Of a DNA stretch of 64,000 nucleotides, positions 11,230 through 49,605 are shown in pieces. The stretch lies in the NCBI GenBank assembly GCA_016792805.1, contig JAEUHX010000042.1:132046-196045 (forward strand), written 5' to 3'. Source of the stretch: Planctomycetota bacterium (GTDB taxonomy: Bacteria > Planctomycetota > UBA1135 > JACQFD01). The position numbers and the translations under genes are program-made. Position 1 is the stretch's first letter, and each line of letters begins with the position of its first letter. A model generated the notes under the pieces. It did no database searches and had not been told where the DNA came from. It saw only the letters and a list, made by a program, of their open reading frames with translations.

Positions 11230-11292
11230 GCTCACCACGAATCCAGATCGTCCACATACCCCATCCAAACTCTCTCATCTCGGAGGCCTCCC

Positions 11293-11838: not shown

Positions 11839-11944
11839 ATCGGGCCGAGCGGACCTGTAACCGATGCGGGTAGCGGGGCCCACGCCGTGTGAGGCATGGG
11901 CCCCGGCGCACTCTCCCGGGTCTCCTTCTGCGAAGATTCTCCCC

Positions 11945-14595: not shown

Positions 14596-15487
14596 CGTCC
14601 GCGCAGCAGGAACGGCCGCGCCAGCGCGGGCCTTCGGAGGCGCGCGAAGCGACGTGCCGATGTCTCAGCTCACCACATTTCAGGTTGGCGGACCGGCGCG
14701 TTTGCTCCTCGAGCCGCTCGACCCCGAAAGCGCCGCCGAGACCGTGCGGCGCGTCCGCCAACGCGGGCTGCCGGTTCGTGTGCTCGGCAACGGCAGCAAT
14801 CTCCTGGTCTCCGACGCCGGCGTCGAGGGAGCTGTGATCTTCACAGATCGCATGCGCCGGTGCATTCAGGACGAAGACCGAATCCGGGCTTGGGCGGGCA
14901 CCCATCTCGTCGGGCTTGTCAATTATGCGGCGAAGGTGGGGCTCTCGGGCGTCGAGGGGCTGATCGGCATCCCGGCCCAAGTCGGGGGCGCCGTGCGCAT
15001 GAATGCCGGCGGCCGCTGGGGCGAGATCTTCGACGTGCTCGAGTCGGTGACGGTCTGCGACCTCGAGACGGGAGAAGTGAGGACGCTCACGCGCTCCGAA
15101 TGCCAGCCGACCTACCGCAACAGCAACCTCGGAAATGTGATGGTCCTTGAGTGCGTCCTGCGGCTCAAGCCGGGCGACCGCAAGGCCATCGCCGAAGCCA
15201 CCAAGGAGCATCTGCTCGAGAAGAACGCCGTGCAGCCGGTCACGGAGCCCTCGGCGGGATGTATCTTCAAGAATCCCAAACCCGACAGCGCCGGAAAAGT
15301 GATCGAGAGCTGCGGCCTCAAAGGCACGCGCATCGGCGGCATCGAGGTCTCCCCGAAGCACGCCAACTATTTTGTGAACGTCGGCGGGGGCACCTGCGAC
15401 GATGCCCTCCGCCTCATCGAGCTCGTCCGCGACCGCGTGCGCCGCGAGCGCGGAATCGAGCTTCAGCTCGAAGTTCAGCTCTGGTAG
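14546..15487 (+). CDS. murB: UDP-N-acetylenolpyruvoylglucosamine reductase
   Basis: LTTFQVGGPARLL...RVLGNGSNLLVSD...YRNS...SAGCIFKNP...GGIEVSPKHANYFVN. The start is uncertain: ATG 14546 overlaps murC by 50 nt, and ATG 14564 is an alternative. Confidence 0.88.
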   Translation: MSIGWPMSWFDEPRLGSVRAAGTAAPARAFGGARSDVPMSQLTTFQVGGPARLLLEPLDPESAAETVRRVRQRGLPVRVLGNGSNLLVSDAGVEGAVIFTDRMRRCIQDEDRIRAWAGTHLVGLVNYAAKVGLSGVEGLIGIPAQVGGAVRMNAGGRWGEIFDVLESVTVCDLETGEVRTLTRSECQPTYRNSNLGNVMVLECVLRLKPGDRKAIAEATKEHLLEKNAVQPVTEPSAGCIFKNPKPDSAGKVIESCGLKGTRIGGIEVSPKHANYFVNVGGGTCDDALRLIELVRDRVRRERGIELQLEVQLW

Positions 15488-16182: not shown

Positions 16183-18315
16183 CTATTTCCCTCCGCCGGT
16201 GACCGGGCCGCCCGTCGGAGTAGGCGGAGGCGCTGGTTTCTTGGGATCGGGCTCGGTTTTCTTCGGCGGTTTCGGCGGCCGCGCCTTCGGCGGCAGCGTC
16301 TTCGGGTTGCCTTGAGGCTGGGGCGGGGGAGGAGGCGGATCGAAGGGGATCACCTCCGTTGCTTCGGCGTCGCCGATCACAATTTCTTCCTCCGGCGTAT
16401 GCACGAGAGGGCGGAATCGGGCGCCGAGATTCTGCTGTGGAAATACACAAATGGCCGCCGACCACCACGACGCGTCGGGCTCCCACTCCTCGAATGCGAT
16501 CATCTCCTCGCCGTCGGTTCGCCGAAGGATGCCCTGGCGCGGCATCCGCACGTCTCCGAATTGGCTGCGGCCAGTAACAAATCCAGTCGGAGATCCCCAG
16601 CCCATCGCCGACGCCCGCCTCGGATCGAACGCAATTTTCCAGGGCTCTTCGGGAAGCTCTCTCTCCGTGAGCAGCGCGACGGAGCAGCCGCGGCCGGGCA
16701 CGTGCTCGACGACCGTGCCGTCCTCGGCAGTCCTCGTGATGAGCACGCCGCTGCCGCGCTTGATCGAGAATGCACTAAAACCGCCGGAAAGGAAGAAATC
16801 CTTCGGGCGCTCGAGCTGGCTGCGGCGCACCGCCGAGAGCGATCCGCTCCCGTCGAGCTCGATCCGTGCGAAGACCACCGCGGAGCGCAGATCGTCGGCG
16901 AGCCGGTAGAAGACGAGCATCACCGGTGCGAGGTCGCTCTCGCGACGCAACAAAAGCGCGTCGCTCCCACGTCGCGTCGGAGCGGGTGCCGGCTCGGCGC
17001 CCCGCGGACTCTTCGAGCGTGCCCGCGCGAATCCGCCGGGGCCGCGATAGAAGGCAAAGGGTCGATCGCTCAGATAATTGCCAGTGGCGCGCCCGAGCAC
17101 CCAACGAAGGGCGAGGCGCCCTGACGATTCAAACGTCGAGGCCGCAGCTTCGCCCTCCTCGGCGCGCTCGTCGGTTCCGGGAAGCACCCAGGCCTCGTAG
17201 CGCTGCCCAGTGTCCGGCGCTTCCAAGCGCCCGACGAACATCGCTCCGATCGCGCCGCGCGGCGACACCTTCGGCTTCGCAGGCTCCGGCGCATTCTTCG
17301 CGCCGCTCTCTCCGGTCTTCACGCCGTTCAAGGCTGCGAAAAGCTCGTACGCATATCCGACCACTTCCCCCTGGGAGGGCGATTCCCGCGGAGGCAGCGC
17401 GCGCCAGCGCCTCTCGGCGCGCAGCCCTGCCAAGACCTCCTCGGCGATGAGGTCGTGAATCCCACTTTTCCATTCCGACGCAGCGTTGAGAATGAGCTCC
17501 GGCGGAAATAGTAAAGGATCACCCGAGACGGGCCCGCGCGACATGAGTAAACTCTGCGCCAGGCTTTCGACGTGGAAGGCGAGCCGGAAGCGGATGTGCT
17601 CGCGCCGCTCGCCGTCGAGCCACTCGCCCCAGACAGGGGCCGGTTCGCCGGTCGCGAATCGCGCCGAACCGATGATCGGCGGGCCGTCGTCCTCGGTGCG
17701 CACGTCGACTGCGAGCAGACCCCAATTATCGCGGCGCGAGCCTTGGCGGAGTGTTCGTACTTTTCGTTCGGGAATGCTCCAGTCGATCAGGGTGCCTCGG
17801 ACGTTGTGCCGCAGGGATTCACCGTTGGATCCCGGGCGCCAGACGGGAAGCCAGCTAGGCCCCGAAGAAGTAGCAACCCACAAAACGGAGAAGGCGTTGC
17901 TTTCCAGCGGGAGATCGCAGGCGAACTCCGGGCCGTCGGCCTTCACTCCAAAAGCGTTGTTGCGCGCGTCGAACCGCAGCGCCACCGGTTCCACGCTTTT
18001 CGGCTGCCGCGTCGCGCCGTCCAGCACCACGCGGTAAGCCGCCGTCGTGGCGCCGCTGCGCGTGTCGTGGGCGATCACGATCTGCTCCGGGCGCCCCGAC
18101 TCGCCTCGAACGGCGTGGACCAGCAGGAAGTCGCGCTGGTTCGCTGGCTGCCCGAGTGGTCCCCGCTCCACGAGGTAGCCGAATGCTTCGCCCGGCCGCC
18201 ACCCCTGGGGTGAGGCTTTGCGGGCGTACGCCGCCCCGGGGAGGAGCGCTGCGGTCAACGGCGCCAGCGCCGCGGCGAGCGCGGCAGCCAGTAGTCGTCC
18301 CGCAGGGTAGTGCAT
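16183..18315 (-). CDS. large secreted hypothetical protein with Pro/Lys-rich C-terminus
   Basis: ATG 18315 gives the signal peptide MHYPAGRLLAAALAAALAPLTAALLPGAAYA. It reads as 711 aa with good GC3 bias. The C-terminus is PPPPPPQPQGNPKTLPPKARPPKPPKKTEPDPKKPAPPPTP. No family recognised. Confidence 0.65.
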   Translation of the reverse strand: MHYPAGRLLAAALAAALAPLTAALLPGAAYARKASPQGWRPGEAFGYLVERGPLGQPANQRDFLLVHAVRGESGRPEQIVIAHDTRSGATTAAYRVVLDGATRQPKSVEPVALRFDARNNAFGVKADGPEFACDLPLESNAFSVLWVATSSGPSWLPVWRPGSNGESLRHNVRGTLIDWSIPERKVRTLRQGSRRDNWGLLAVDVRTEDDGPPIIGSARFATGEPAPVWGEWLDGERREHIRFRLAFHVESLAQSLLMSRGPVSGDPLLFPPELILNAASEWKSGIHDLIAEEVLAGLRAERRWRALPPRESPSQGEVVGYAYELFAALNGVKTGESGAKNAPEPAKPKVSPRGAIGAMFVGRLEAPDTGQRYEAWVLPGTDERAEEGEAAASTFESSGRLALRWVLGRATGNYLSDRPFAFYRGPGGFARARSKSPRGAEPAPAPTRRGSDALLLRRESDLAPVMLVFYRLADDLRSAVVFARIELDGSGSLSAVRRSQLERPKDFFLSGGFSAFSIKRGSGVLITRTAEDGTVVEHVPGRGCSVALLTERELPEEPWKIAFDPRRASAMGWGSPTGFVTGRSQFGDVRMPRQGILRRTDGEEMIAFEEWEPDASWWSAAICVFPQQNLGARFRPLVHTPEEEIVIGDAEATEVIPFDPPPPPPQPQGNPKTLPPKARPPKPPKKTEPDPKKPAPPPTPTGGPVTGGGK

Positions 18316-18523
18316 GGATCGGGGGATCGCGCGCGAGCGCACAAGCAATCTATGCCGGCCAGCACGGGGCGCGACGGGAGGAGTTCCCAGATTTCGGGCT
18401 GAGGCGGAAGCGACGCGTTGGCGCTGCGGAAATGCGTGATGGGAGCGGCGCCCGGGCCACGCCGGAGGAGGCAAAGACCGAGTCGCCCCTTCGGCGACCG
18501 ATTCGAACCCTTCGGTGCCCTCC

Positions 18524-20074
18524 ATGGATCGTCCCCCGATGATGCTCCTCGCCCCTGCCCTGTTGGCGGCAGCGAGTCTTCTATCTCCGTTGGTTCCCGC
18601 CCAGGACCGGTTCGCCGCCATTGCAGACGGCGCCTCGGTCGTGCCGCCCACCGCGAGCCCTGCCACGGCGGAGATCGATTTCAGTCTCGATCCTGCGACG
18701 CAGCAGGCCTTCTACCGAATTGTGCACAATGTGCCTGGCGCCATCGGCGCCGAGGTGCGCCAGGCGTTTCCCGGCGCCAATGGCCCCGTCGCCATCGCAC
18801 TTGCTCCCGCCGGGCCCTTCGAATTTCGCGGCGTGACGCCGCCGATGAGCCCGGCCGACCGGCTGTTACTCTTTCAGGGCGGCTTTTATGTGAATATTCG
18901 GTCCGCAGCGGCTCCCGCGGGCGAGATCCGCGGCCAACTCGCGAAATATGTACATCGCGATTTCGCCTGCGATCTAAATCAAGCCAACGTCGTTCCTCCG
19001 TCGGGGAGCCCTGCCACCGGGGTTGCGCATTTCACTCTCCACGAACCCGAGAACCGGCTCACCTATCAAGTGCAGGTGTCCGGCCTCCTCTCTCCGCCGA
19101 CCGGCGCGCAGCTGCGCTTCGCGCCTCCGGGGGCCAACGGCCCCGTGGTGGTCGATCTCGGCGCGCCGCTCCCGGCCACGGCCGCCTGGGCCGGGTACAG
19201 TCCGGCCCTCACGCCGCCTCAGGTCGCAGCTCTCAAGGCCGGAAACTTTTATGTGAGTGTGGATTCGATCCTCTCGCCAGCGGGCGCGGTGCGCGGTCAG
19301 TTGACCGGCGCCAAGCAGTCGTTCTCGCTGCGAGCCAACGGCAGCCAGGTGGTGCCGCCGAACCTGAGCCCGAACCAGGGCAGAGGCGGTCTCATCTTCG
19401 ATCCCGCCACGGCGGAACTCGCCTACTCGATCGATTGGAACGGCATCAACGGGACGGGGGCCATCTTACAGATCGGCTACCCGGGTCAGCCCGGCGGCGT
19501 CCTGCTGCCTCTGGCAGGCCCGCCCAACGGCCCGTGGATCGGCAGCACCCCGCCGCTGGCCACGGCGACCGTCGATTTATTGTATCGCCAAGGCCTCAAT
19601 ATCGAGATCTTGAGCATGGCGGTCCCAACCGGCGAGCTTCGCGGTTCGGTCAGGTTGAATCATGATCATTACGGATACTCCGGAGCGACTCTTCCGGCGC
19701 CGATGGCCGGCGACCGGCGCCTCAAGATCTCGAGCGAAGGTATTCCTTCCCTCGGCGCCCCGTTCACGGTGGAGCTCTACGGGGGCATGCCCGGTGCTGC
19801 GGCGACTCTTGCTTATTGTGAGGACCTCATCGGCACTCCCCTCGACCTGCTCCCTTTCGGAGTGCCGAGCCATGTGCTTTGGGGGAACGCGCTCGGCGGC
19901 TATCCCGCGCCGCCTGTGAATCTCCACGGCGCCACGGAATTGAATTTCACCCTGCCCGTGATGGCCGCGCTGATCGGACAGGACTTCTACCTCCAGTGGT
20001 TCTCCGTGGAGCCTGGAGCGAACCCCTTGGGCCTTGTGACGAGTGATGCCATTGAGGTGGTCCTCGTCCCGTAG
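18524..20074 (+). CDS. secreted protein with three CHRD domains and a family-specific C-terminal domain
   Basis: Signal peptide MDRPPMMLLAPALLAAASLLSPLVPAQD. Three roughly 110-aa repeats end in FYVNIRSAAAPAGEIRGQL, FYVSVDSILSPAGAVRGQL and LNIEILSMAVPTGELRGSV (CHRD signature). The C-terminal ~140 aa is shared with the two FG-GAP proteins. Confidence 0.8.
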   Translation: MDRPPMMLLAPALLAAASLLSPLVPAQDRFAAIADGASVVPPTASPATAEIDFSLDPATQQAFYRIVHNVPGAIGAEVRQAFPGANGPVAIALAPAGPFEFRGVTPPMSPADRLLLFQGGFYVNIRSAAAPAGEIRGQLAKYVHRDFACDLNQANVVPPSGSPATGVAHFTLHEPENRLTYQVQVSGLLSPPTGAQLRFAPPGANGPVVVDLGAPLPATAAWAGYSPALTPPQVAALKAGNFYVSVDSILSPAGAVRGQLTGAKQSFSLRANGSQVVPPNLSPNQGRGGLIFDPATAELAYSIDWNGINGTGAILQIGYPGQPGGVLLPLAGPPNGPWIGSTPPLATATVDLLYRQGLNIEILSMAVPTGELRGSVRLNHDHYGYSGATLPAPMAGDRRLKISSEGIPSLGAPFTVELYGGMPGAAATLAYCEDLIGTPLDLLPFGVPSHVLWGNALGGYPAPPVNLHGATELNFTLPVMAALIGQDFYLQWFSVEPGANPLGLVTSDAIEVVLVP

Positions 20075-28821: not shown

Positions 28822-29040
28822 GTGAACTGGGAACATTTGCAGTCGCAGGTCATCTCCACAGTCGTTTTTGGAACGATTGGTATCATTCTTTTCGCAGTGG
28901 CGTTCAAGGTCATCGAGCGGCTGCTGCCGTTCTCGCTCCACAAGGAGATCGAGCATGACCAAAACACGGCGCTCGCGATCGTGATGGGCTCGATTCTTCT
29001 GGGCCTCGCCATCATCGTGGCCGCCGCGATCCACGGTTGA
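28822..29040 (+). CDS. DUF350 domain membrane protein (YjfL-like)
   Basis: GTG 28822 gives a 72-aa protein with two TM helices: VISTVVFGTIGIILFAVAFKVIERLLPFSLHKEIEHDQNTALAIVMGSILLGLAIIVAAAI. Confidence 0.7.
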   Translation: MNWEHLQSQVISTVVFGTIGIILFAVAFKVIERLLPFSLHKEIEHDQNTALAIVMGSILLGLAIIVAAAIHG

Positions 29041-30533
29041 AGCTCCGGCTCGTATTTTTAACAGTGTTTGTGATCGCCGCCTGTGGGCTCGGGTACGAGC
29101 TCACGGCGGGGGCGCTCGCTTCCTACCTGCTCGGGGATTCGGTCACACAATTCTCGACTGCCATCGGACTGTATCTTTCGGCGCTCGGAGTCGGAAGCTA
29201 CCTCAGCAAGCACGTCGAGCGCCGCGTCGCCGAACGGTTCATCGAGATCGAATTGGCCGTGGCGCTTCTCGGAGGCACGCTGTCGGCGGCGCTCTTCGCG
29301 GCCTTCGGCGCGGGCGAGTGGTTTCGTCCCGTTTTGTATGGAGAGATCCTGGCCGTCGGAACGCTGGTCGGGCTCGAGATTCCGCTGCTGCTGCGCATCC
29401 TGAAAGATGAGCTCGAGTTCAAAGAACTGGTCGCCCAAGTGCTCACCGTCGACTACATCGGCGCCCTCGCCGTCTCGCTCGCATTCCCGATGCTTCTCGT
29501 GCCGAAGCTCGGCCTTGTGCGCGCGGCGCTCGCGCTCGGCCTCGCGAACGCCGCCGTGGCACTCTGGAGCACTTGGATTTTCGAGACGCGCCTCGCGCGG
29601 CCGGGGCGCCTTCGTATCAAATCGGCCGTCGTCCTGGCGCTGCTCGGCCTCGGCATCGTGATGTCCGACCGCATCACGTCACTTTCCGAGGCCTCGATCT
29701 ACGCCGACGAGGTGGTCTACGCGCGCAACACCCCATACCAGAGAATTGTGGTGACGCAGAGCCGCGCGGGGTTTCAACTTTTCCTAAACGGAGCGCTCCA
29801 ATTCTCGAGCGCCGACGAGTATCGCTATCACGAGGCCCTCGTGCACCCCGCCATGGGCTCGTGCCGCGAGCCTCGGCGCGTTGCCATTTTGGGAGGAGGC
29901 GACGGGCTCGCGCTGCGGGAGGTTCTGAAGGAGCCGCGGGTCGAGAGCGTCGTGCTCGTCGACATCGATCCCGCGATGGTGGAGCTGGCGAGAACCTTTG
30001 AGCCGCTGCGGCGTCTCAATCACGCAGCATTCGACGATCCGCGCGTCCGCGTCGTCCACGACGACGCCATGCGCTGGCTCGCGACGAAGCCGGGGATCTT
30101 TGATGTGGTCCTCGCCGACTTTCCCGACCCGAGCTCCTTCCAAGTCGGGAAGCTCTACACCACCACCTGCTACGAGCGGATCCTCGCCTGTCTGGCGCCC
30201 GACGGCGTGCTCGCCGTGCAGGCCACGTCGCCCCTGATGGCGCGCCGCTCGTTTTGGTGTATTTCGGCGACGCTCGAATCGTGCGGGCTCTACGTGCGCC
30301 CTTATCACGCGCTCGTCCCGTCTTTCGGCGAGTGGGGATTCATGCTGGCGGCGCGGCAGGTCCTCGATGTCCCGCGCTCCGTGCCGGAAGGGCTGCGATA
30401 TTTGAACAAGGATATTGTGGAGTCACTATTCCATCTTCCCGAGGATCTGGCGCCCATTCCTGCAGAAATCAATCGATTGAGTAACCAAGTGCTCGTTCAC
30501 TACTACGAGCAAGAGTGGCGTCGCTGGAACTAA
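29037..30533 (+). CDS. membrane-fused polyamine aminopropyltransferase (spermidine synthase-like)
   Basis: The first ~200 aa are polytopic. The spermidine synthase domain follows: YQRIVV, ALQFSSADEYRYHEALVHP, ILGGGDGLALREVLK, VDIDPAMVELAR, DVVLADFPDP. The TTG start overlaps the preceding stop (TTGA). Confidence 0.85.
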   Translation: MKLRLVFLTVFVIAACGLGYELTAGALASYLLGDSVTQFSTAIGLYLSALGVGSYLSKHVERRVAERFIEIELAVALLGGTLSAALFAAFGAGEWFRPVLYGEILAVGTLVGLEIPLLLRILKDELEFKELVAQVLTVDYIGALAVSLAFPMLLVPKLGLVRAALALGLANAAVALWSTWIFETRLARPGRLRIKSAVVLALLGLGIVMSDRITSLSEASIYADEVVYARNTPYQRIVVTQSRAGFQLFLNGALQFSSADEYRYHEALVHPAMGSCREPRRVAILGGGDGLALREVLKEPRVESVVLVDIDPAMVELARTFEPLRRLNHAAFDDPRVRVVHDDAMRWLATKPGIFDVVLADFPDPSSFQVGKLYTTTCYERILACLAPDGVLAVQATSPLMARRSFWCISATLESCGLYVRPYHALVPSFGEWGFMLAARQVLDVPRSVPEGLRYLNKDIVESLFHLPEDLAPIPAEINRLSNQVLVHYYEQEWRRWN

Positions 30534-32167
30534 GCAACCACCGAAACGAGCACCCGACGCGCCGTGAGGTGCTCCAGGGCGCGCTCTGCCTCGGAGTTGC
30601 AGCCGGGCTCTCCGGCTGTCGTGTGCCGGGCGCGCGTCGCGCGATCCAGGGATCGATTGTTGGAGCCCATGACGTGCGCGGGCATCGCGTTCGCGCCGAC
30701 TGGCCCAACGCGCCGGTGCTGAGCCGTGAGGAGCTGGAGGTGTTGATCGTCGGCGGGGGCGTCAGTGGCCTTGCCGCCGGATGGCGGCTTCAGGGGGCCG
30801 GATTGCAGGATTTCCAGATCCTCGAGCTTGAGGACTCGCTCGGCGGAACGGCGCAGTCGGGTGCATCGGAGATCTCACAATACCCCTGGGGCGCTCACTA
30901 TCTCCCCGTGCCCCGCGCCGACCAGCATTTGGTCGTGCGGCTGCTCAGGGAAATGGGACTCGTGACGGGCGTCGACGGTTTGGGCCGGATCCTGACTCCC
31001 GAGGAGGCACGGGTGCGCGCCCCGCAAGAGCGCCTGTTTCATCGCGGCCTTTGGACCGAGGGGCTCTATCTGCGCGACGGCGCAAGCGCGTCCGACCTCG
31101 GGCAGCTCGAACGATTCGAGTTTACCGTTCGCTGCATGGCCTCCGTGGCGGGCGTCGACGGCAGACGTTCCTTTACTCTTCCAATTGCCGATTGCTCGCG
31201 CGATCCCGCTGTCCGCGGCCTCGACAGGCTCTCGATGCGGCAGTGGCTCGATATGCATGGCTTCGATTCGCCGCGCCTTCGGTGGTACGTCGAGTACGCC
31301 TGCCGAGACGATTTTGGAGCGACGCTGGAGCACACCTCCGCCTGGGCCGGGCTTCATTACTATTGCTCCCGCCTCGACGCCGAGGGCGAGCCCGCTGAGT
31401 TTCTCACCTGGCCCGAAGGGAACTCTGCCCTTGCACAGGCGCTCGCGAGAGGCTTCGAGAATCGCGTGCGCACCGGCATGGTGGTGTTGTCGATTGAAGG
31501 CGATGGCGACTCGGCTCGCGTGGTCGCTATGGACGAGCGAGCCGGAGGGCTGCGCGAGGTGCGAGCGCGCCGTGTGATTTGTGCGATTCCGAGATATGTT
31601 GCTTCGCGTATCGTGCGCGGCGCCGATCCGCGTCCGGCAGCCGCGTTCCGGTACTCGCCTTGGTGCGTTGCGAACATTACGCTTCGCGGCCAGCCGCGCG
31701 AGACAGGATTCCCGCTGTGCTGGGACAACGTGCTCTTCGAGAGCAGCTCGCTTGGATATGTGGTTTCGACGCACCAGCTCGACCGGCTCGAAGGCGGATC
31801 GGTCTGGACTTGGTACCGGCCCCATGCCGAGGAGGATCCCGCCGTGGCGCGTGCCGCACTCCTGGCGCGTCCGTGGGAGGCGCACCGCGACGAGGTGCTT
31901 CGAGATCTCGGGCGCGCCCACCCCGGCTTCGCCGACGAGGTGGATCGGATCGATGTGTGGCGTTGGGGCCATGGCATGGTGCGGCCTGAGCCGGGATTCC
32001 TCTTCGGCCGGGCGCGCCAGCTCGCGGCAAGACCCTACAAAAATATCCACTTCGCCTCGGCCGACCTCTCCGGAATCCCCATTTTTGAAGAGGCGCAGTG
32101 GCAGGGCGCTCGGGCCGCCGAGGAGGTGCTGGCCGCACGCGGCCAAACGTTCACGTCTTGGCTTTGA
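30515..32167 (+). CDS. FAD-dependent oxidoreductase (flavin amine oxidase-like), Tat/lipoprotein signal
   Basis: TRREVLQGALCLGVAAGLSGC combines a twin-arginine motif with a lipobox. The dinucleotide-binding motif is VLIVGGGVSGLAAGWRL...ILELEDSLGG. The GTG start overlaps the upstream gene by 19 nt. Confidence 0.8.
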   Translation: MASLELSNHRNEHPTRREVLQGALCLGVAAGLSGCRVPGARRAIQGSIVGAHDVRGHRVRADWPNAPVLSREELEVLIVGGGVSGLAAGWRLQGAGLQDFQILELEDSLGGTAQSGASEISQYPWGAHYLPVPRADQHLVVRLLREMGLVTGVDGLGRILTPEEARVRAPQERLFHRGLWTEGLYLRDGASASDLGQLERFEFTVRCMASVAGVDGRRSFTLPIADCSRDPAVRGLDRLSMRQWLDMHGFDSPRLRWYVEYACRDDFGATLEHTSAWAGLHYYCSRLDAEGEPAEFLTWPEGNSALAQALARGFENRVRTGMVVLSIEGDGDSARVVAMDERAGGLREVRARRVICAIPRYVASRIVRGADPRPAAAFRYSPWCVANITLRGQPRETGFPLCWDNVLFESSSLGYVVSTHQLDRLEGGSVWTWYRPHAEEDPAVARAALLARPWEAHRDEVLRDLGRAHPGFADEVDRIDVWRWGHGMVRPEPGFLFGRARQLAARPYKNIHFASADLSGIPIFEEAQWQGARAAEEVLAARGQTFTSWL

Positions 32168-32179: not shown

Positions 32180-32941
32180 CTATCGCCTCAGGCCCGCCGG
32201 CCCGACCGCCTTCTCATAGACGTCGGCGGTGTCGGCGGGGTCAGGGCGGTCGAGAACGCTCTCGGCGGCGTGCGCAAAGAGGATCTCGCCGCCGCCGGAG
32301 ATCACAAACGTCGCGGGCCGTGCCGTGTCTCCGCCGCCCGGCTGCGCGCCGGGATGCAACAGATCGAAGGCGCGGATCACGCGCCGGTCGGCATCGGAGA
32401 AGAGTGCAATCGCCGGTCCGAGCTGCTCTCCGAAGGCCTTCAGATCCTCGGGGGCGTCCGGCGCGATGGCGAGGACCGCGGGTGCCGCAATGCCGCGGCC
32501 GGCCAGCTCGTCTCCAAGACCTTGGAGCTCCGCGCGGCAGATCATTCACCAAACCCCGCGGAAGAAGACTACAATTTTGGGTCTTCCGCCCAGAGCTTCG
32601 GCAAGTGTAAGCTTCTTGCCCGATGAACTCACCACCGCCAGCTCAAGAGGCGCCTGCGCCCCCGTTGGCGGAACACCCGGACTGTGGGGGACTCGGGCAA
32701 GGACCGTCGTGCCCAACAGGAAGAAAACCGCCGCGAACCCGAGCAAAGCTGCCGCCAGAAAGCTCCCGAGCTTGCGCCGTTGGAGCGCGTGAAGGAGAGC
32801 GATTGCGGCGCCTGCCACAGAAAATACCGCAAATAGCAGCGGCATCGACCGAGCCGTCGGATGACTGAGCATCGCGATATACAAGCCCGGCGCGCCGAAG
32901 ACGAGCGCCGCAGCCGGGACCAGCCAGAGAGGAGATTTCAT
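32180..32941 (-). CDS. candidate selenoprotein: membrane-anchored AhpC/TSA (redoxin) thioredoxin-fold protein with UxxC
   Basis: Track ORFs 32546..32941 and 32180..32545 are in the same frame, separated only by TGA (32546-32548). Read through, the sequence is ...KIVVFFRGVW-U-MICRAEL..., which puts the TGA at the first Cys of the family motif F(F/Y)RGxWCPxCxxEL. Three N-terminal TM helices are present, and a SECIS-like hairpin lies downstream. Confidence 0.65.
32492..32538 (-). promoter_or_regulatory. putative bacterial SECIS element
   Basis: The mRNA from +21 after the UGA reads CUCCA-AGGUCU-UGGAG (plus-strand 32512-32527). The apical loop AGGUCU is identical to the E. coli fdhF SECIS loop as I recall it. 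Flanking GC-rich segments (GCCGCG...CGCGGC) could form a lower stem. Confidence 0.55.
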
Positions 32942-32971: not shown

Positions 32972-33232
32972 CTACAGGCCGTAGGTCCGGCCCAGAGTGA
33001 AGACAACCACCGATGCGACCGCCGCGACGACCGCTCCGGCGTAGAACCCGGGCTTGTGAGTTTTGTGGCGAAAGAGAAACATTCCGGCCCAGAGTCCGGG
33101 AGCGCCACCGAAGAAGGCGGCGATCAGAAGCGCCCTCTCTGAGATCCGCGAGCGTCCGGTCGCGGCGAGCGCTTTGTCGATCCCCATCGCGAGAAAGACA
33201 GCGACGTTCCAGAGGAGGAGAAGCCGAATCAC
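32972..33232 (-). CDS. DUF1294 domain membrane protein
   Basis: Only the C-terminal 87 codons of track ORF 32972..33850 look real: (V)IRLLLLWNVAVFLAMGIDKALAATGRSRISERALLIAAFFGGAPGLWAGMFLFRHKTHKPGFY. Proposed start is GTG 33232. The rest of that ORF is antisense to trkA. Confidence 0.6.
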   Translation of the reverse strand: MIRLLLLWNVAVFLAMGIDKALAATGRSRISERALLIAAFFGGAPGLWAGMFLFRHKTHKPGFYAGAVVAAVASVVVFTLGRTYGL

Positions 33233-33313
33233 GGGCGGGAGGTCAGCATAGCTAGAAGGGGAACGCTCGGCTCCAGCGCTCGCGCTCGGCGGGGCGCCGC
33301 CGATACTGGGCCC

Positions 33314-33982
33314 ATGAAAGTCGCAGTGATCGGTCTCGGCCAGTTCGGCCGGGCGCTCGTCACGGAGCTCGCCCGCGCGGGGGCCGAGGTCTTCGCCGTC
33401 GATCGAATTCTCGAGGCCGTGGATGACGTGAAGGATGAGGCTGCGGTGGCCGTTCGCCTCGACGGCGCCGACGAGAAGGATCTGCGCGCCCAAGGGGTCC
33501 ACAAGGTGGATGTTCTCGTCGCAGCCATGGGGGAGTCGTTCGAAGCGACCGCGCTCACGGTTCTCACCGCCAAGCGCCTCGAGGTTCCGAAGGTGATCGC
33601 CCGCGCCGATAACAGCGACCACGCCCGCATCCTCACGGCCATCGGGGCCGACGTCGTCGTAGTTCCGCTGCGCGATGCTGCAGCCGACCTCGCCCAGCGC
33701 ATCCTGACCCCCGGCGCCAAGAACTCCTTCGAGCTGGCCGAAGGAGTGAGCGTCGTCGAGGTGGAGGCCCCCAAGCGCTTCCACCATGTGAAGGTCAAAG
33801 ATCTCGACCTCGCTAAGCGCCACCGCGTGAATCTCGTGGCCATTCGCCATCGCGGAGCCGCAGGAGGTCCCGAAGTCGTGAATCCGGTGCCACTGCCCGA
33901 CGAGAAGGTGTTGCCCGGCGACGTGCTGGTATTAGTGGGCTTCGACGCCGATGCCGAAGCGTTCGCGCGAAACGCCAGCTAG
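33314..33982 (+). CDS. trkA: Trk/Ktr potassium uptake system NAD-binding subunit
   Basis: MKVAVIGLGQFGRALVTELARAGAEVFAVD is a Rossmann GxGxxG motif, followed by a TrkA-C domain. Its stop shares the palindrome CTAG (33979-33982) with the trkH stop. Confidence 0.88.
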   Translation: MKVAVIGLGQFGRALVTELARAGAEVFAVDRILEAVDDVKDEAAVAVRLDGADEKDLRAQGVHKVDVLVAAMGESFEATALTVLTAKRLEVPKVIARADNSDHARILTAIGADVVVVPLRDAAADLAQRILTPGAKNSFELAEGVSVVEVEAPKRFHHVKVKDLDLAKRHRVNLVAIRHRGAAGGPEVVNPVPLPDEKVLPGDVLVLVGFDADAEAFARNAS

Positions 33983-44064: not shown

Positions 44065-45306
44065 TCAGCGGAGAAGTGACTTCGCCCGAAGGCGGACACG
44101 CTGCGATTCATACCAGCGGTCGGCGACCGCGCGGGCCGCGACGAGGATCGCTTCACCCCCAGCGCGAAGCTCCGGCGGAAGCGGCTGCGCGAACTCGTCG
44201 GCTCCCGGAAGCGCCTCAAGAAACGCCGCGAGCACATCTCGGCGCGGCTCTTCGGCGAGCGCCTGGAATATGCTCACTTCCAATAATGGTGCGAGCCAGT
44301 CGGCTGCTTCGGAGCCGACCTGGTTGCGCAAGTACGCGCGCGTTCGAAGGCGCGCCGTATGTCCACTCTTCGAGAACACTTGCCGCACGCGCTCGGGGCG
44401 TTCCGGCGCGGCGAGCCCGCGAAGCTCGAGGACCACGCGCGCGCCCTCCACGGCATCTGCGTCGAGCTTCCCGGCGAGCCGGCTCAGGCGGATGTCGTCC
44501 TCCGGAACTCCGATCTCGCTCAGCAATTGTGCGTGGAAGCGGACGGTCGCGAGCGACTCCGCCGGATCGTCGAGCACAAGCCGCGCTCGCGCGCGGGCCG
44601 ACTCCACAGCTTTTGTTATTTCTTCAGCGGGAGCGACCGCCGCCGATGCAGACAGAAACTGGACCTCGCGATGCAGAAGCTCAAGGCTCGGAGAAGTAAT
44701 ATCTTCCGCGTGCGTCGGATAGCGAAGCGCGCGTGCGGGACCGAGAGTGACGACGCTCGGCGCTGCGGCGCCGGGCGGAGTCCACTCCAGCGTGAAGAGT
44801 GCCGTGAGCGCATGGGAAGTGGATGTGTAAGAACCTCTGTTCGCCCACCGCGGTTGCGCTTTTGCGGACGCAAAGGCTGCGCCTCGAAGCAGGAAGGTCG
44901 CCGCGACGCCGGGCGCGACCGTCCGGCGCTCAACGCTCCCTCCCGCGCCTGAAGTGAACTTTGCGATATCGATCGTCGCCTCTTTGCCATCGCAATGGAG
45001 ATGCATCTCGGCGCCTTCGGAGGTTGCGTTCCATGCACAAAAACGCGCCGAGACGGGAACGGAGATCTCGCTCGGCGTCTCCAGGGTGAACACAATCGCT
45101 TTCCCCTGGCGGCTCTCGTCGAGCCGCGCTCGAAGAGATTCTCGGGCCCAGGCGGCAGCCTGCTCGCGCAGTGCCGCATCGGTGGGAAACACCTGCGCCG
45201 ACGCGCTCTGTAGCGGGCTCCCCTGCGGCCCGCGGTAGGGTGCACCGCCGTGCAGAGCCGACACAGCTGTGAGGAGCCCAGCGACTCCGAGGAGATGAGG
45301 GACCAT
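44065..45306 (-). CDS. secreted hypothetical protein
   Basis: ATG 45306 gives MVPHLLGVAGLLTAVSALHG (signal-like). It reads as 413 aa with good GC3 bias, a beta-rich N-terminal half and a helical C-terminal half. No family recognised. Confidence 0.55.
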   Translation of the reverse strand: MVPHLLGVAGLLTAVSALHGGAPYRGPQGSPLQSASAQVFPTDAALREQAAAWARESLRARLDESRQGKAIVFTLETPSEISVPVSARFCAWNATSEGAEMHLHCDGKEATIDIAKFTSGAGGSVERRTVAPGVAATFLLRGAAFASAKAQPRWANRGSYTSTSHALTALFTLEWTPPGAAAPSVVTLGPARALRYPTHAEDITSPSLELLHREVQFLSASAAVAPAEEITKAVESARARARLVLDDPAESLATVRFHAQLLSEIGVPEDDIRLSRLAGKLDADAVEGARVVLELRGLAAPERPERVRQVFSKSGHTARLRTRAYLRNQVGSEAADWLAPLLEVSIFQALAEEPRRDVLAAFLEALPGADEFAQPLPPELRAGGEAILVAARAVADRWYESQRVRLRAKSLLR

Positions 45307-45358
45307 GGCTGCCACGCTAGCGGCCTCTGAGCACGCCGTCACCGTATGCTGGGCCGTC

Positions 45359-45808
45359 ATGTCGATTCCTGTTCCCGGCGACGCGCTTGCGCTCGCCTTC
45401 GATCACGTGGCCTTCGCGGTCCCCGATCTGGAGGCCGCGATCGCGGAGTATGGCAAGCACCTGCGGCTCGTGGTCGCCCACCGGGAGCGCATCGAGGAGC
45501 AGGGCGTGGAGGAGGCGCTTCTCGCGGTTGGCGGCAGCTTCGTTCAACTGTTATGTCCGCTCGGGCCGGAGACGCCCGTCGGCAAGTTTCTCACGAAGCG
45601 CGGGCCTGGGATTCACCATGTCGGGTACCGGGTCGCCAGCATCGAGCAGGCGCTTGCGGCGATGAAGGCGAGCGGCGCTCGCCTCATCGATGAGAAGCCG
45701 CGTCGCGGCTCGCGCGGCACGCGCATCGCATTTGTGCATCCGGCGGCTCTGGGCGGGCCGCTCGTGGAGCTGGTGGAGGAGCCGGCGGAGGGCTCGCACC
45801 ATGGGTGA
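45359..45808 (+). CDS. mce: methylmalonyl-CoA epimerase (VOC/glyoxalase fold)
   Basis: FDHVAFAVPDLEAAIAEY...VQLLCPLGPETPVGKFLTKRGPGIHHVGYRVASIEQALAAMKASGARLID...IAFVHPAALGGPLVELVE. Confidence 0.85.
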   Translation: MSIPVPGDALALAFDHVAFAVPDLEAAIAEYGKHLRLVVAHRERIEEQGVEEALLAVGGSFVQLLCPLGPETPVGKFLTKRGPGIHHVGYRVASIEQALAAMKASGARLIDEKPRRGSRGTRIAFVHPAALGGPLVELVEEPAEGSHHG

Positions 45809-48021: not shown

Positions 48022-48102
48022 TGCTCCGGCAGATCCATCTCCGCTGAGTCCCACAGCCGGCGCCGCTGGTTTCTTGATACCCATGAGATCATTCAAGTGA
48101 AC

Positions 48103-49605
48103 ATGACCCCCGAGGCTAGTTCTCATCGATCGCGGCGCCGGCAGCGCACGTCCACAATACTTGTGACGATCCTCGGGAGCCTCGCGCTGGGGCTCCTGGT
48201 TGCCTTCAGCGTTCGCGGCAGAATGGTGCGCGGCGAGGAGGGGCTGCTTCGGGCGCAGCCGACGGAAGTCGCAGCCCTTCAGCCGGCCAACCTAGGCACA
48301 AGTTCAGCGGGAGCCAGGAGCCCAGGGGATATTCGTACGAAGACACAGATTCTGGTTCGCGATCGAGTCAGCGCGATTCCCCTGACTGGAGTATCGCTGA
48401 CCGCACGCGGGGGAGCCGCAAACCTCGGCGGCTCTCCGACCGACTCGGCTGGTCTCTGGTGCGGTCCTCCGAACGCGCTCGCAGGAGTGGAGATGATGGA
48501 CTGCATCCTCCCGCCGGAGCTGGGAGGAATCACAGTTCCCATCGCGGTCCCGAAAGTTGCCGAGCCGGATGGGACCCTCATTCTTGACGTGCCCGCCCTT
48601 GCGCGGCTGCGAGTCGAGCTCAGCGCCACTCCGGATGTCCGCGGAATTGTAGAACTCCATGTATTTGATCTGCCGCCTGTTCCGCCTTCCGCTCCATTGA
48701 GCGACCGCGTTCGCGAGCACCTTGAGATCCAGCGAAACTCCACGCCAGAGTTGTATGTCAAACAGCTCGCGGAGCGGGGGCTGCGGGAGCGGCCTATGGA
48801 GCGGACCAAGAGCTTGGAGTTCTCCTCGTCTGAGGACTGCCGCCTCACACAGATTGATTTCGATGTCCCCTACGCTGGCGACATGGTCGCGGCCGCCGAC
48901 TCTCGCGGCTGCGTTCCTCTGCGCAAGCGGGTGGCGCTGCAGCGGGGAGAGATCACAACTGTTCCTTTGCTTTGCCGTCGGAAGCCCATCATCTCCGGCA
49001 TCGTTCGCGACGCCTTCGGCAAGCGGCTGCCGGGCATACAGGTTACCGCCGCTTCGAAGGGAAGCTTTGACGGCACGGAGGTGCTCCCTCACTCGCTCAA
49101 CGAGCCGGGCGGGCCCGCACTGATCCATGTGGTGGGTCTCGGAAAATCCGTTGGAGTTGCAGTCGTTCAATTATCGCGGCGTACCAATGAAGAAGGGCAG
49201 TACGAGATCGAGATGCCGTTCACGGGAGATGTGGCTGCTTGGTGCTCTCTGGAAGGCAGCGGCAGTGCGTATGCAGAGCGCATAGTTCCGTCACGCGATT
49301 CGGCTGTCCCAGATTTGGATCTTCGGCTTCCGCCTCGAATGGAGCCGCCCCTTCGGCTGCTTTTAGTTGCTCCGGACGGATACCCCTTGGCGCGTTCCAC
49401 AGTTCTCGTTTCGGAGACCGACCCAGCGAATCCCTTCTATCGGTCCTATCCGGAAGTCTGCACAGATGAGAGCGGGTGGCTCGACGCGACAATTCTTGAG
49501 CCCGGCCGCACTTATCAATTCTCCGCCCTGCAGGGAGCGCCGCTCGGAGGCGTCTGGAACGCAAGCAGCGGGTTGGTTGTCGAGCTTCGCTCCGGGCCCC
49601 CCTGA
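48103..49605 (+). CDS. single-pass membrane protein with carboxypeptidase-regulatory-like beta-sandwich repeats
   Basis: The cytoplasmic N-terminus is Arg-rich (SSHRSRRRQRTS), followed by a TM helix (ILVTILGSLALGLLVAF). CarboxypepD_reg-like strings follow: ISGIVRDAFGKRLPGIQVTA and TNEEGQYEIEMPF. GTG 48097 is an alternative start. Confidence 0.6.
   Translation: MTPEASSHRSRRRQRTSTILVTILGSLALGLLVAFSVRGRMVRGEEGLLRAQPTEVAALQPANLGTSSAGARSPGDIRTKTQILVRDRVSAIPLTGVSLTARGGAANLGGSPTDSAGLWCGPPNALAGVEMMDCILPPELGGITVPIAVPKVAEPDGTLILDVPALARLRVELSATPDVRGIVELHVFDLPPVPPSAPLSDRVREHLEIQRNSTPELYVKQLAERGLRERPMERTKSLEFSSSEDCRLTQIDFDVPYAGDMVAAADSRGCVPLRKRVALQRGEITTVPLLCRRKPIISGIVRDAFGKRLPGIQVTAASKGSFDGTEVLPHSLNEPGGPALIHVVGLGKSVGVAVVQLSRRTNEEGQYEIEMPFTGDVAAWCSLEGSGSAYAERIVPSRDSAVPDLDLRLPPRMEPPLRLLLVAPDGYPLARSTVLVSETDPANPFYRSYPEVCTDESGWLDATILEPGRTYQFSALQGAPLGGVWNASSGLVVELRSGPP

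What the first reader, a model, noticed from the sequence alone, without database searches (positions are those of the whole stretch)
32180..32941. Candidate selenoprotein: in-frame TGA at the first Cys of a redoxin CxxC motif, followed by an fdhF-like SECIS hairpin
Two adjacent same-frame track ORFs (32546..32941 and 32180..32545) are separated only by TGA at 32546-32548. Read through, the junction is KIVVFFRGVW-[TGA]-MICRAELQGL. That is the AhpC/TSA redoxin motif F-x-R-G-x-W-C-P-x-C-x-x-E-L with the stop codon exactly at the resolving or peroxidatic Cys position, giving UxxC.

Twenty-one nt downstream, the mRNA can form CUCCA-AGGUCU-UGGAG. Its apical loop AGGUCU matches the loop of the E. 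coli fdhF SECIS (from memory). GC-rich flanks could form a lower stem. UxxC thioredoxin-fold and Prx-like selenoproteins are an established class. The fusion to a three-helix N-terminal membrane anchor is less usual.
Basis: partly seen in the sequence, partly recalled or inferred. Interest (0 to 1): 0.75.

Follow-up and report, generated by a model that had tools for sequence, protein, structure and literature searches.

The report
Membrane-anchored redoxin selenoprotein gene, mis-annotated
The in-frame TGA is very probably a real selenocysteine codon in a membrane-anchored thioredoxin-fold redox protein, a known kind of bacterial selenoprotein that public annotation cuts in two.

Summary
Minus-strand ORFs 32546..32941 and 32180..32545 are one 253-codon gene interrupted only by TGA at 32546-32548.

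Read through, it has three N-terminal membrane helices followed by an AhpC/TSA-redoxin domain that spans the TGA. The TGA aligns with the first Cys of W-C-x-x-C in 16 of 18 full-length homologues.

- **The TGA is conserved.** It is identical in five independently assembled contigs of the same sequence. It is kept in an 82%-identical relative, with dN/dS 0.14 upstream and 0.16 downstream. It is present in 44 of the 45 other homologous loci read as DNA, from MAGs labelled as five lineages.
- **A hairpin follows it.** Eighteen nt after the UGA lies a 6-bp hairpin, CUCCAA-GGUC-UUGGAG (32512-32527). It is conserved across the family (97-99% of cells paired, some compensatory changes). It uses rare codons and carries the same AGGUCU apex as E. 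coli fdhF, 6 nt further from the UGA.
- **It is a known kind.** It falls in the established "Prx-like" UxxC class of selenoproteins, so it is a new member of that class.

- Sec sits at the Thr/Ser position of the peroxiredoxin T/SxxC motif, not at the peroxidatic Cys.
- No conserved lower stem exists.
- The three-helix anchor is the family norm.

Sec machinery could not be checked in this genome.

The parts
32180..32941 (-). Complete selenoprotein gene: 253 codons (ATG 32941-32939, Sec-TGA as codon 132) plus the TAG stop at 32182-32180.
   Evidence: Searches give the sequence and frame. Pfam AhpC-TSA and Redoxin span the TGA. The orthologue in L001 has the same length and frame.
32546..32548 (-). 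In-frame TGA, predicted selenocysteine codon (U132), first position of the U-M-I-C redox motif.
   Evidence: It aligns with Cys in 16 of 18 full-length homologues and Ser in 2. TGA is at this column in L001-L009, in 14 of 14 genome loci and in 27 of 28 metagenome loci.
32537..32539 (-). TGC codon for Cys135, the second residue of UxxC. It is the equivalent of the peroxidatic Cys of BCP/PrxQ peroxiredoxins.
   Evidence: The phmmer alignment to PDB 2cx3 pairs query WCMIC with chain FSPVC. Cys135 is invariant in the family alignment.
32512..32527 (-). SECIS-type hairpin: 5' arm CUCCAA (32527-32522), loop GGUC (32521-32518), 3' arm UUGGAG (32517-32512). It encodes L-Q-G-L-G.
   Evidence: 97.4% of cells are paired in 22 type-A sequences, with an A-U to G-C compensatory change. 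A type-B variant is 99.1% paired in 16 sequences. It is the only conserved helix found by RNAalifold. Its codon choice is improbable, p = 0.003. The AGGUCU apex is identical to fdhF.
32502..32548 (-). Block from the TGA to 3' of the hairpin that shows no substitution against the 82%-identical relative L001. The full run of 15 identical codons (47 nt) begins one codon earlier, at TGG 32551-32549, and is the longest in the gene.
   Evidence: In the permutation test, P = 0.009 for such a run anywhere in the gene and 1e-4 at this exact place.
32687..32932 (-). N-terminal membrane region with three predicted transmembrane helices (residues about 4-26, 31-54 and 57-85). No Pfam family matches it.
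   Evidence: Hydropathy and K/R distribution. No significant Pfam match. The AF2 model of Cys homologue P0155 shows three long helices before the redoxin domain.
32282..32656 (-). AhpC/TSA-redoxin (thioredoxin-fold) domain, residues 96-220, predicted to face outside the cytoplasm.
   Evidence: Pfam. Sequence matches to PDB BCP/PrxQ. Fold matches of the homologue model to Bcp4, BcpB, PrxQ, AhpE and ResA. Orientation comes from the positive-inside rule and is an inference.
32975..33262 (-). Context: DUF1294 membrane-protein gene on the same strand, ending 30 nt before the selenoprotein start. It may be co-transcribed.
   Evidence: Pfam PF06961, E = 4.7e-21. Its C-terminal codons are conserved in L001. 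The start coordinate is approximate.

Best explanation
Window 32180-32941 (minus strand) is a single functional gene for a 253-residue selenoprotein.

**Translation.** The UGA at codon 132 is proposed to be decoded as selenocysteine. The mRNA hairpin 18 nt downstream (CUCCAA-GGUC-UUGGAG) is proposed to recruit SelB with Sec-tRNASec to the ribosome. This step is inferred from conservation.

**Protein architecture.** The N-terminus is predicted to be cytoplasmic. Three membrane helices follow, then an AhpC/TSA-redoxin domain on the outer (periplasmic) face. The orientation is inferred from the positive-inside rule.

**Chemistry.** The active site is W-U132-M-I-C135. By its sequence alignment with helix 146-157 of the modelled Cys homologue (CPFC 145-148; window residues not modelled), it sits at the start of the first helix of the fold. 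It is a thioredoxin-like UxxC built on a peroxiredoxin scaffold. The selenolate of U132 most likely attacks an oxidised substrate, either a disulfide or sulfenate on a periplasmic or membrane protein, or possibly a peroxide. It would then form a selenenylsulfide with C135 and be re-reduced by an unidentified partner.

I favour a thiol:disulfide oxidoreductase role (about 0.55) over a peroxidase role (about 0.3).

It belongs to a large family spread across phyla, in which Sec forms are common and are routinely annotated as 101-121 aa 'peroxiredoxin' or 'redoxin' fragments.
For: **Shown**
- One Pfam domain spans the stop.
- The TGA column is Cys in 16 of 18 full-length homologues.
- TGA is identical in five independently assembled contigs read directly, out of eight that carry the C-terminal fragment.
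- The orthologue L001 (82% nucleotide identity) keeps the TGA, with dN/dS 0.14 in the N-terminal half and 0.16 in the C-terminal half.
- The longest substitution-free run in the gene begins one codon before the TGA and covers the hairpin (P = 0.009 anywhere, 1e-4 at that site).
- TGA is at the same column in L007 and L008/L009, in 14 of 14 loci from MAGs labelled Planctomycetes/Planctomycetota, Verrucomicrobia/Verrucomicrobiales, Acidobacteriota, Holophagae and Deltaproteobacteria, and in 27 of 28 metagenome loci.
- The hairpin is 97.4% paired (type A) and 99.1% paired (type B), against 2-56% for slid controls. It shows A-U to G-C compensatory changes.
- It is the only helix RNAalifold keeps.
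- The hairpin codons CTC, CAA, CTT and GGA have joint probability 0.003 under this window's codon usage.
- The peptide ELQGL that encodes the hairpin occurs in 41 of 45 TGA loci but in only 2 of 47 Cys-type proteins. The constraint therefore follows the TGA and not the protein.
- The apical AGGUCU is identical to E. coli fdhF.
- TGA is a normal stop elsewhere in the window, for example the amine oxidase gene at 32165-32167.
- The AF2 model of Cys homologue P0155 (pLDDT 88.7) has three membrane helices plus a Prx/ResA-like fold.

**From the literature**
- Prx-like PF00578 UxxC selenoproteins are an established class (PMC1088965; PMC2398784 Table 2; PMC13188914 table).
- Some Planctomycetes carry full Sec machinery (PMC4807772).
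Against: - selA, selB, selD and tRNA-Sec were not found in the 64-kb window or in any fetched locus. The rest of the genome could not be searched.
- The window hairpin alone is thermodynamically unremarkable (z = 0). It competes with an alternative local pairing.
- The loop is 6 nt further from the UGA than in fdhF, and the stem lacks the fdhF bulged U.
- The third loop base varies (U, G or A) in the family, unlike the U needed by E. coli SelB.
- One relative (L024) has GGA at the column.
- No Rfam family matches.
- The codon after the TGA is ATG in this subclade, so two separate products cannot be excluded from sequence alone.
- There is no experimental evidence for Se incorporation, topology, substrate or reductant.
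Confidence: 0.88

Rival explanations
1. Pseudogene: a nonsense mutation (TGC/TGT to TGA) has inactivated an ordinary CxxC redoxin gene.
For: Public annotation treats it as broken. NCBI lists only a 121-aa 'redoxin domain-containing protein'. Cys-type full-length homologues exist. No Sec machinery was seen in the window.
Against: The same TGA is kept in an orthologue at dS 0.44-0.89, with dN/dS 0.14 upstream and 0.16 downstream of the stop. It is also kept in 44 of the 45 other homologous loci read as DNA, from MAGs labelled as five lineages. A conserved hairpin built from rare codons follows it. A dead gene would not keep the downstream half under purifying selection.
Confidence: 0.03
2. Two real genes: the 131-aa membrane protein ends at TGA, and a 121-aa protein starts at the adjacent ATG (TGA-ATG translational coupling). 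This would give a split redoxin.
For: In the window's subclade (window, L001, L007, L008, L012, L024) the codon after the TGA column is always ATG. Gene callers do call two genes.
Against: In most of the family the next codon is CCN (Pro), which is not a start codon, yet the TGA is still there. The split would fall inside the active-site motif, between strand and helix of one Pfam domain. The catalytic first residue would be removed. In L024 the column is GGA and the ORF is continuous for 250 aa, with Met as an internal residue. The Cys homologue P0105 also has Met after the first Cys (WCMLC).
Confidence: 0.03
3. UGA is read through as a standard amino acid (Trp, Cys or Gly) by near-cognate or reassigned decoding, not as Sec.
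For: JGI pipelines translated the column as Trp in 8 family members. L024 has Gly (GGA) there. Sec machinery is unverified.
Against: TGA is an ordinary stop in this window: many confidently coding ORFs end in TGA. There is therefore no genome-wide reassignment. Trp or Gly at the nucleophile position of a CxxC motif would abolish the redox chemistry, whereas Sec preserves and enhances it. The conserved downstream hairpin with a GG-containing apical loop is what SelB-dependent decoding needs, and it has no role in simple read-through.
Confidence: 0.04
4. Sequencing or assembly error created the TGA.
For: The window comes from a metagenome-assembled genome.
Against: TGA ATG ATC TGC is identical in the five contigs read (L002-L006), assembled from five different sequencing runs. 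It is also identical in the distinct relative L001.
Confidence: 0.005

Closest known systems
Prx-like thiol:disulfide oxidoreductase selenoproteins ('Prx-like 1', PF00578, UxxC; first listed by Kryukov & Gladyshev 2004, reference WP_010940744.1; PMC1088965, PMC2398784, PMC13188914). Also the listed 'Redoxin family protein' (PF08534, UxxC).
   Same: AhpC/TSA and Redoxin Pfam domains. Sec is the first residue of a thioredoxin-like UxxC that replaces the TxxC of true peroxiredoxins. Cys-containing homologues are abundant. Function is predicted only.
   Different: This clade carries a conserved three-helix N-terminal membrane region with no Pfam family. It is concentrated in MAGs labelled Planctomycetes/Planctomycetota, Verrucomicrobia, Acidobacteriota and Holophagae. 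I could not compare it directly with the reference sequence. No NCBIfam model reaches its cut-off. The papers I read do not mention a membrane anchor.
BCP/PrxQ and AhpE peroxiredoxins (PDB 2cx3, 3hjp, 5epf, 1xxu)
   Same: They are the closest solved structures by sequence (2cx3, E = 2.4e-12). They are also the closest by fold of the Cys-homologue model (TM-score 0.8-0.9 on the target). Cys135 aligns with the peroxidatic Cys.
   Different: The Thr/Ser that activates the peroxidatic Cys is replaced by Sec. The Pro of PxxxT is replaced (FFRGVW). The family-conserved Arg (D-x-A-R-P-A) is offset by one residue from the Prx catalytic Arg in the alignment. These enzymes are soluble and cytoplasmic, whereas this protein is membrane-anchored.
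ResA / TlpA / CcmG (DsbE) membrane-anchored periplasmic thiol:disulfide oxidoreductases
   Same: A membrane anchor followed by a CxxC thioredoxin-fold domain that is predicted (here) to face the periplasm. ResA structures are among the fold matches. ResA and DsbE models give weak NCBIfam hits.
   Different: Those proteins have one anchor helix, not three. They have Cys, not Sec, and they sit in cytochrome c maturation contexts. Scores are far below the family cut-offs. No conserved gene neighbourhood is seen here.
E. coli fdhF SECIS
   Same: The apical hexamer AGGUCU is identical, on a G/C-containing stem 3' of the UGA.
   Different: The loop starts at nt 27, not nt 21. The stem is a perfect 6-bp helix without the bulged U. 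There is no conserved lower stem. The U of GGU is not conserved in the family (GGU, GGG or GGA).
SelL-related redox protein (NCBIfam NF040769)
   Same: It is the best NCBIfam hit for the window protein (E = 1.7e-14), and both are Prx-like redox proteins.
   Different: The score is 53.8 bits against a cut-off of 120, and the match covers only profile positions 5-101 of 173. This protein is not a member.

Membership tests
Bacterial selenoprotein gene (UGA-Sec with bacterial SECIS) | In-frame UGA that aligns with Cys in homologues | tested here: met
   Cys in 16 of 18 full-length homologues and Ser in 2. The motifs are listed.
Bacterial selenoprotein gene (UGA-Sec with bacterial SECIS) | UGA conserved in orthologues, with coding constraint on both sides | tested here: met
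   L001 has dN/dS 0.14 upstream and 0.16 downstream. TGA is present in 44 of the 45 other loci read.
Bacterial selenoprotein gene (UGA-Sec with bacterial SECIS) | Stem-loop shortly 3' of the UGA with G in the apical loop, conserved beyond coding needs | tested here: met
   6-bp stem with GGNC loop at nt 22-37. Pairing is 97-99% against 2-56% for slid controls. Compensatory changes are present. Rare codons are used (p = 0.003). It is the RNAalifold consensus.
Bacterial selenoprotein gene (UGA-Sec with bacterial SECIS) | selA, selB, selD and tRNA-Sec present in the same genome | not testable with these tools
   None is in the 64-kb window or in the fetched loci. The rest of the MAG cannot be retrieved. 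Sec machinery is documented in some Planctomycetes (PMC4807772).
Bacterial selenoprotein gene (UGA-Sec with bacterial SECIS) | Selenium shown in the protein (75Se labelling or mass spectrometry) | not testable with these tools
   This needs an experiment.
AhpC/TSA - Redoxin thioredoxin-fold superfamily (PF00578 / PF08534) | Pfam match above the gathering score | tested here: met
   57.6 bits against 26, and 34.6 bits against 26.6, with Sec written as Cys.
AhpC/TSA - Redoxin thioredoxin-fold superfamily (PF00578 / PF08534) | Thioredoxin-like fold with the redox motif at the N-terminus of the first helix | tested here: met
   This was tested on Cys homologue P0155, not on the window protein. pLDDT is 88.7, and CPFC 145-148 caps helix 146-157. 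Top PDB matches are Bcp4, BcpB, PrxQ, AhpE and ResA.
Prx-like thiol:disulfide oxidoreductase selenoprotein class (PF00578, UxxC) | PF00578 domain with a UxxC motif in place of the peroxiredoxin TxxC/TxxU | tested here: met
   U132-M-I-C135. U aligns to Ser of the 2cx3 SxxC and C135 to the peroxidatic Cys. The class definition is in PMC1088965 and PMC2398784 Table 2.
Prx-like thiol:disulfide oxidoreductase selenoprotein class (PF00578, UxxC) | Close homology to the reference member WP_010940744.1 | not tested
True peroxiredoxin (PxxxT/SxxC plus catalytic Arg) | Conserved Pro and Thr/Ser preceding the peroxidatic Cys | tested here: not met
   FFRGVW-U-MI-C against FFPAAF-S-PV-C. The Pro is replaced and Sec occupies the Thr/Ser position.
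True peroxiredoxin (PxxxT/SxxC plus catalytic Arg) | Catalytic Arg in the strand after the third helix | tested here: inconclusive
   The family has a nearly invariant Arg in D-x-A-R-P-A. It aligns one residue off the Prx Arg in the 2cx3 alignment.
SelL-related redox protein (NF040769) | Score at or above the curated cut-off (120 bits) | tested here: not met
   53.8 bits for the window protein and 44-55 bits for four relatives.
ResA / TlpA / DsbE periplasmic thiol:disulfide oxidoreductases | Score at or above the curated cut-offs | tested here: not met
   Relatives score 39-68 bits against the ResA cut-off of 170 and 21-27 bits against the DsbE cut-off of 123. The window protein scores 12.9 and 22.1 bits respectively.
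E. coli fdhF-type SECIS | Apical loop AGGUCU | tested here: met
   The hexamer is identical.
E. coli fdhF-type SECIS | Same spacing from the UGA and a bulged U in the upper stem | tested here: not met
   The loop is at nt 27-32 against nt 21-26 in fdhF. The 6-bp stem is perfect, with no bulge.

The most novel reading that the evidence does not exclude
The window gene may represent a distinct, so far unnamed family. Its features would be:

- A periplasm-facing UxxC seleno-redoxin fused to its own conserved three-helix membrane module, which matches no Pfam or NCBIfam model.
- Wide distribution in soil and aquatic Planctomycetota, Verrucomicrobiota and Acidobacteriota.
- Sec forms outnumbering Cys forms among the closest relatives (86 against 31 of the top 120 hits).
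- A SECIS hairpin that dictates the peptide motif E-L-Q-G-L.
- Near-universal mis-annotation as truncated 'peroxiredoxin' fragments.

The membrane module could be the electron-entry partner of the redox domain, rather than a passive anchor.
Probability: 0.3. Interest if true: 0.45.

Novelty: new member of a known kind. Interest (0 to 1): 0.32.

Why it matters
**For this genome.** Two annotated or unannotated fragments (131 aa and 121 aa) should be merged into one 253-residue selenoprotein. The finding also implies that the organism decodes Sec.

**More broadly.** At least many hundreds of database entries of this family are truncated at the Sec codon or translated with Trp there. No NCBIfam model covers the family. 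A dedicated model would fix a systematic annotation gap. It would also raise selenoproteome counts for Planctomycetota, Verrucomicrobiota and Acidobacteriota.

**What it does not do.** It does not change the understanding of Sec decoding or of thioredoxin-fold chemistry.

Tried and rejected
- **Full-length word search failed.** The first search with the full-length read-through protein found nothing, probably because the hydrophobic N-terminus swamped the word index. The domain alone worked.
- A 20-sequence alignment was too diverse for locus finding.
- **Rfam found nothing.** Gathering thresholds gave no match in the window. Permissive thresholds gave only a chance mir-42 hit on the region. 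No curated family covers this bacterial SECIS.
- **Single-sequence folding gave no signal.** The z-score was 0. I rejected energy as evidence and used comparative analysis instead.
- **No conserved lower stem.** RNAalifold on 66 nt found none.
- **No Sec machinery seen.** There are no tRNAs in the window or in 25 loci, apart from one tRNA-Met. Pfam on 20 further large window ORFs showed a dcw cluster, CHRD, HpcH, Usp, FG-GAP and Fer4 proteins, but no SelA, SelB or SelD.
- **No other candidate Sec genes pursued.** A screen for other in-frame TGA candidates in the window gave nothing I followed up.
- **No conserved neighbour.** An all-against-all comparison of flanking ORFs in 27 loci found no conserved neighbour across phyla.
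- **No Pfam family for the membrane region**.
- **No paper on a membrane-anchored form.** A literature search for a membrane-anchored Prx-like selenoprotein found nothing relevant.
- **Rejected explanations.** Pseudogene, split gene, generic read-through and sequencing error are treated under the rival explanations.
Full report
**1. The observation**

On the minus strand the sequence reads TTC TTC CGC GGG GTT TGG TGA ATG ATC TGC CGC GCG GAG CTC CAA GGT CTT GGA GAC. The ORFs 32546..32941 (131 aa) and 32180..32545 (121 aa) share one frame and are separated only by TGA at 32548-32546.

With the stop written as Cys, the 253-residue product matches Pfam AhpC-TSA over residues 96-220 (profile 4-121 of 124, E = 1.6e-15). 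It also matches Redoxin (E = 2e-8). A single domain therefore runs across the stop codon.

All stated coordinates and the junction peptide are correct.

**2. Is the TGA real and maintained?**

- The C-terminal fragment is an NCBI protein from a 'Planctomycetes bacterium' MAG. It also occurs on eight contigs assembled from independent sequencing runs. The five contigs I read all have TGA ATG ATC TGC. Sequencing error is therefore excluded.
- A second organism (L001, gene 82% identical in DNA, same neighbours: TrkH, TrkA, the gene, amine oxidase, spermine-synthase-like) has the same TGA.
- Between the two, dN/dS is 0.14 for the half upstream of the TGA and 0.16 for the half downstream. Both halves are translated and under purifying selection, which a nonsense mutation would not allow.
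- The longest run of unchanged codons in the whole gene (15 codons, 47 nt) starts at TGG-TGA and covers the hairpin. Permutation gives P = 0.009 for such a run anywhere and 1e-4 at that place.

**3. The family**

An exhaustive HMMER search with the C-terminal fragment gave 279 hits. Most of the best are 110-120 aa proteins that begin exactly where the query begins, so their gene calls were cut at the same point.

The full-length hits (240-280 aa) have F-[FY]-R-G-x-W-C-x-x-C-x-x-E-L and the same N-terminal hydrophobic region of about 130 aa. A MAFFT alignment puts the TGA under Cys in 16 of 18 full-length homologues and under Ser in 2.

I then read the DNA of homologues:
- L007 and L008/L009 have FFRGxW-TGA-ATG-GTx-TGC.
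- All 14 loci found in species-representative genomes have F[FY]RGxW-TGA-(CCN/ATG/CGC)-xxx-TG[CT]. Their records label them as Planctomycetes/Planctomycetota, Verrucomicrobia/Verrucomicrobiales, Acidobacteriota, Holophagae and Deltaproteobacteria MAGs.
- Of 28 metagenome loci, 27 have TGA and one (L024) has GGA.

A profile search of the 5.8-billion-protein collection found 1976 relatives at E <= 1e-10. Among the top 120:
- 78 are 101-121 aa fragments that start just after the TGA column.
- 8 are JGI calls with Trp at that column (TGA translated as Trp).
- 31 have Cys.

The names given are only 'peroxiredoxin', 'peroxiredoxin Q/BCP' or 'redoxin domain-containing protein'.

**4. The RNA element**

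Two registers of one hairpin occur.
- **Type A** (the window and 21 other distinct sequences): G-CUCCAA-GGNC-UUGGAG-C, encoding E-L-Q-G-L-G.
- **Type B** (16 sequences): CUGCA(A/G)-GGU-(U/C)UGCAG, encoding E-L-Q-G-L-Q.

Pair counts on a structure I specified:

| Type | Cells paired | Slid controls | Covariation |
|---|---|---|---|
| A | 97.4% | 20-56% | one A-U to G-C double change, in L007 and L012 |
| B | 99.1% | 2-42% | closing pair A-U in 10 sequences, G-C in 6, never mixed |

The type-B covariation could partly reflect GC-dependent codon preference.

RNAalifold, run without my structure, returns exactly the 6-bp apical hairpin and nothing else over 66 nt.

In the window the stem is built from CTC, CAA, CTT and GGA. 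Their joint probability, given this window's codon usage, is 0.003.

The peptide ELQGL is present in 41 of 45 TGA-bearing loci but in only 2 of 47 Cys-type proteins. The constraint therefore travels with the TGA and not with protein function.

I fetched E. coli fdhF. Its UGA (codon 140) is followed by AGGUCU at nt 21-26, and the window has the same hexamer at nt 27-32.

Weak points:
- The window hairpin alone is -7.0 kcal/mol.
- Single-sequence folding shows no excess stability (z = 0) and prefers an alternative pairing.
- The third loop base is U, G or A across the family.
- Rfam has nothing for it.

**5. What the protein is**

*Closest solved relatives.* By sequence, the closest are archaeal BCP/PrxQ peroxiredoxins (2cx3, E = 2.4e-12). 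In that alignment W-U-M-I-C lies over F-S-P-V-C. Sec therefore occupies the Thr/Ser position of the peroxiredoxin T/SxxC motif, and Cys135 is the counterpart of the peroxidatic Cys.

This is the thioredoxin-like UxxC arrangement that the literature describes for 'Prx-like' selenoproteins (PMC1088965).

*Structure model.* An AlphaFold2 model of a full-length Cys homologue (P0155, 35% identical to the window's redoxin domain by local BLASTP; pLDDT 88.7, pTM 0.81) shows three long helices. A thioredoxin-fold domain follows, whose CPFC caps the first helix. Its best PDB fold matches are Bcp4, BcpB, PrxQ, AhpE and ResA. The fold does not separate peroxidase from thiol:disulfide oxidoreductase.

*Topology.* Hydropathy gives three helices in the window protein. 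Lys and Arg cluster at the N-terminus and in the loop between helices 2 and 3 (QRRK). By the positive-inside rule this places the redoxin domain outside the cytoplasm. This is an inference. One family member (L020) has only a signal-peptide-like helix, which fits an extracytoplasmic domain.

*Membrane region.* It matches no Pfam family.

*Neighbours.* No gene neighbour is conserved across phyla, so context gives no partner or substrate.

**6. Mechanism I commit to**

1. SelB-dependent insertion of Sec at UGA132, directed by the hairpin at 32512-32527. This is inferred from conservation.
2. A membrane-anchored, periplasm-facing protein. This is inferred.
3. U132 acts as the attacking nucleophile. 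C135 resolves it to a selenenylsulfide, and an unknown reductant recycles the pair. This is inferred from the chemistry of the CxxC/UxxC family.

I rate thiol:disulfide oxidoreductase at about 0.55, peroxidase at about 0.3 and other roles at about 0.15.

**7. What could not be tested**

The decisive genome-level check is selA, selB, selD and tRNA-Sec. The window has no tRNA gene, and 20 further large ORFs are unrelated to Sec biosynthesis.

Full Sec machinery has been reported in several Planctomycetes (PMC4807772), so the trait is plausible in the phylum.

**8. Comparison with what is known**

Published selenoproteome surveys and a 2026 review list four related families (PMC2398784 Table 2; PMC1794560; PMC13188914):
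- 'Prx-like thiol:disulfide oxidoreductase' (PF00578, UxxC/UxxU)
- 'Redoxin family protein' (PF08534, UxxC)
- 'Peroxiredoxin-like family protein' (cd02970, UxxS)

The window gene meets the defining features of the first class. No NCBIfam model reaches its cut-off for it or for four relatives. The best hit for the window protein, SelL-related NF040769, scores 53.8 against 120; for three of the four relatives BCP or ResA models score higher, still far below their cut-offs. This explains why NCBI's pipeline leaves it truncated.

I found no paper that describes the three-helix membrane form. I also could not compare it with the reference sequences.

**9. Verdict**

This is a genuine Sec codon in a functional gene (confidence about 0.88). 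It is a new member of a known kind.

Interest is moderate to low for a specialist. The useful outcome is correcting the annotation of this gene and recognising a large, systematically truncated family.

Noticed in passing
window 32975-33262 (minus strand): A DUF1294 membrane-protein gene (PF06961, E = 4.7e-21) ends 30 nt upstream of the selenoprotein start codon, on the same strand. The gene calls attached to the related contigs do not list it. It overlaps a longer spurious ORF (32972..33850).
   Followed up: partly
L024 1096-1848 (Ga0187892_10003129): This is the closest relative outside the species (40% identity; motif W-G-M-V-C). It has GGA (Gly) where all others have TGA. The ORF is continuous for 250 aa and the hairpin is still intact. 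It could be a recent Sec-to-Gly loss or a base-call error, and it rests on a single contig.
   Followed up: partly
proteins P0154, P0162, P0164-P0168, P0170: Eight JGI gene calls of this family carry Trp at the Sec column (FYRGYW-W-PFC). The TGA was apparently translated as Trp under an alternative genetic code chosen by the pipeline.
   Followed up: no
family-wide, window 32516-32530: The peptide E-L-Q-G-L right after the UxxC motif is almost diagnostic of the Sec forms. It occurs in 41 of 45 TGA loci and 2 of 47 Cys-type proteins. This is an example of an RNA structure dictating a protein motif.
   Followed up: yes
window 2421-15487 (plus strand): A cell-division/cell-wall (dcw) cluster: mraW, a PBP transpeptidase, two Mur ligases (murE/murF-like), mraY and murB. 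It also has a 732-aa ORF (12397-14595) whose Mur-ligase domains start only at residue 258, leaving about 250 N-terminal residues unassigned.
   Followed up: no
window 29037-32167 (plus strand) and L001 10379-16414: A cluster convergent with the selenoprotein gene and conserved in L001: amine oxidase, spermine-synthase-like protein, DUF350, DUF4178 and AdoMet decarboxylase. It looks like a polyamine-related cluster. The amine oxidase gene ends in TGA at 32165-32167, which shows that TGA is a normal stop here.
   Followed up: no
window 16183-18666, 44065-45360, 48097-49605, 55492-58029, 59407-61218: Several long ORFs with coding-like GC3 have no Pfam match at E <= 1e-5. Some may be wrong-strand shadows in this 65% GC sequence.
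   Followed up: no
window 32483-32548 (minus strand): In the window and L001 only, the hairpin region can also pair as AGCUC...GAGCU, with UGCCGCG/CGCGGCA below it. This is the single-sequence minimum-energy fold. The alternative is not conserved in the family.
   Followed up: partly
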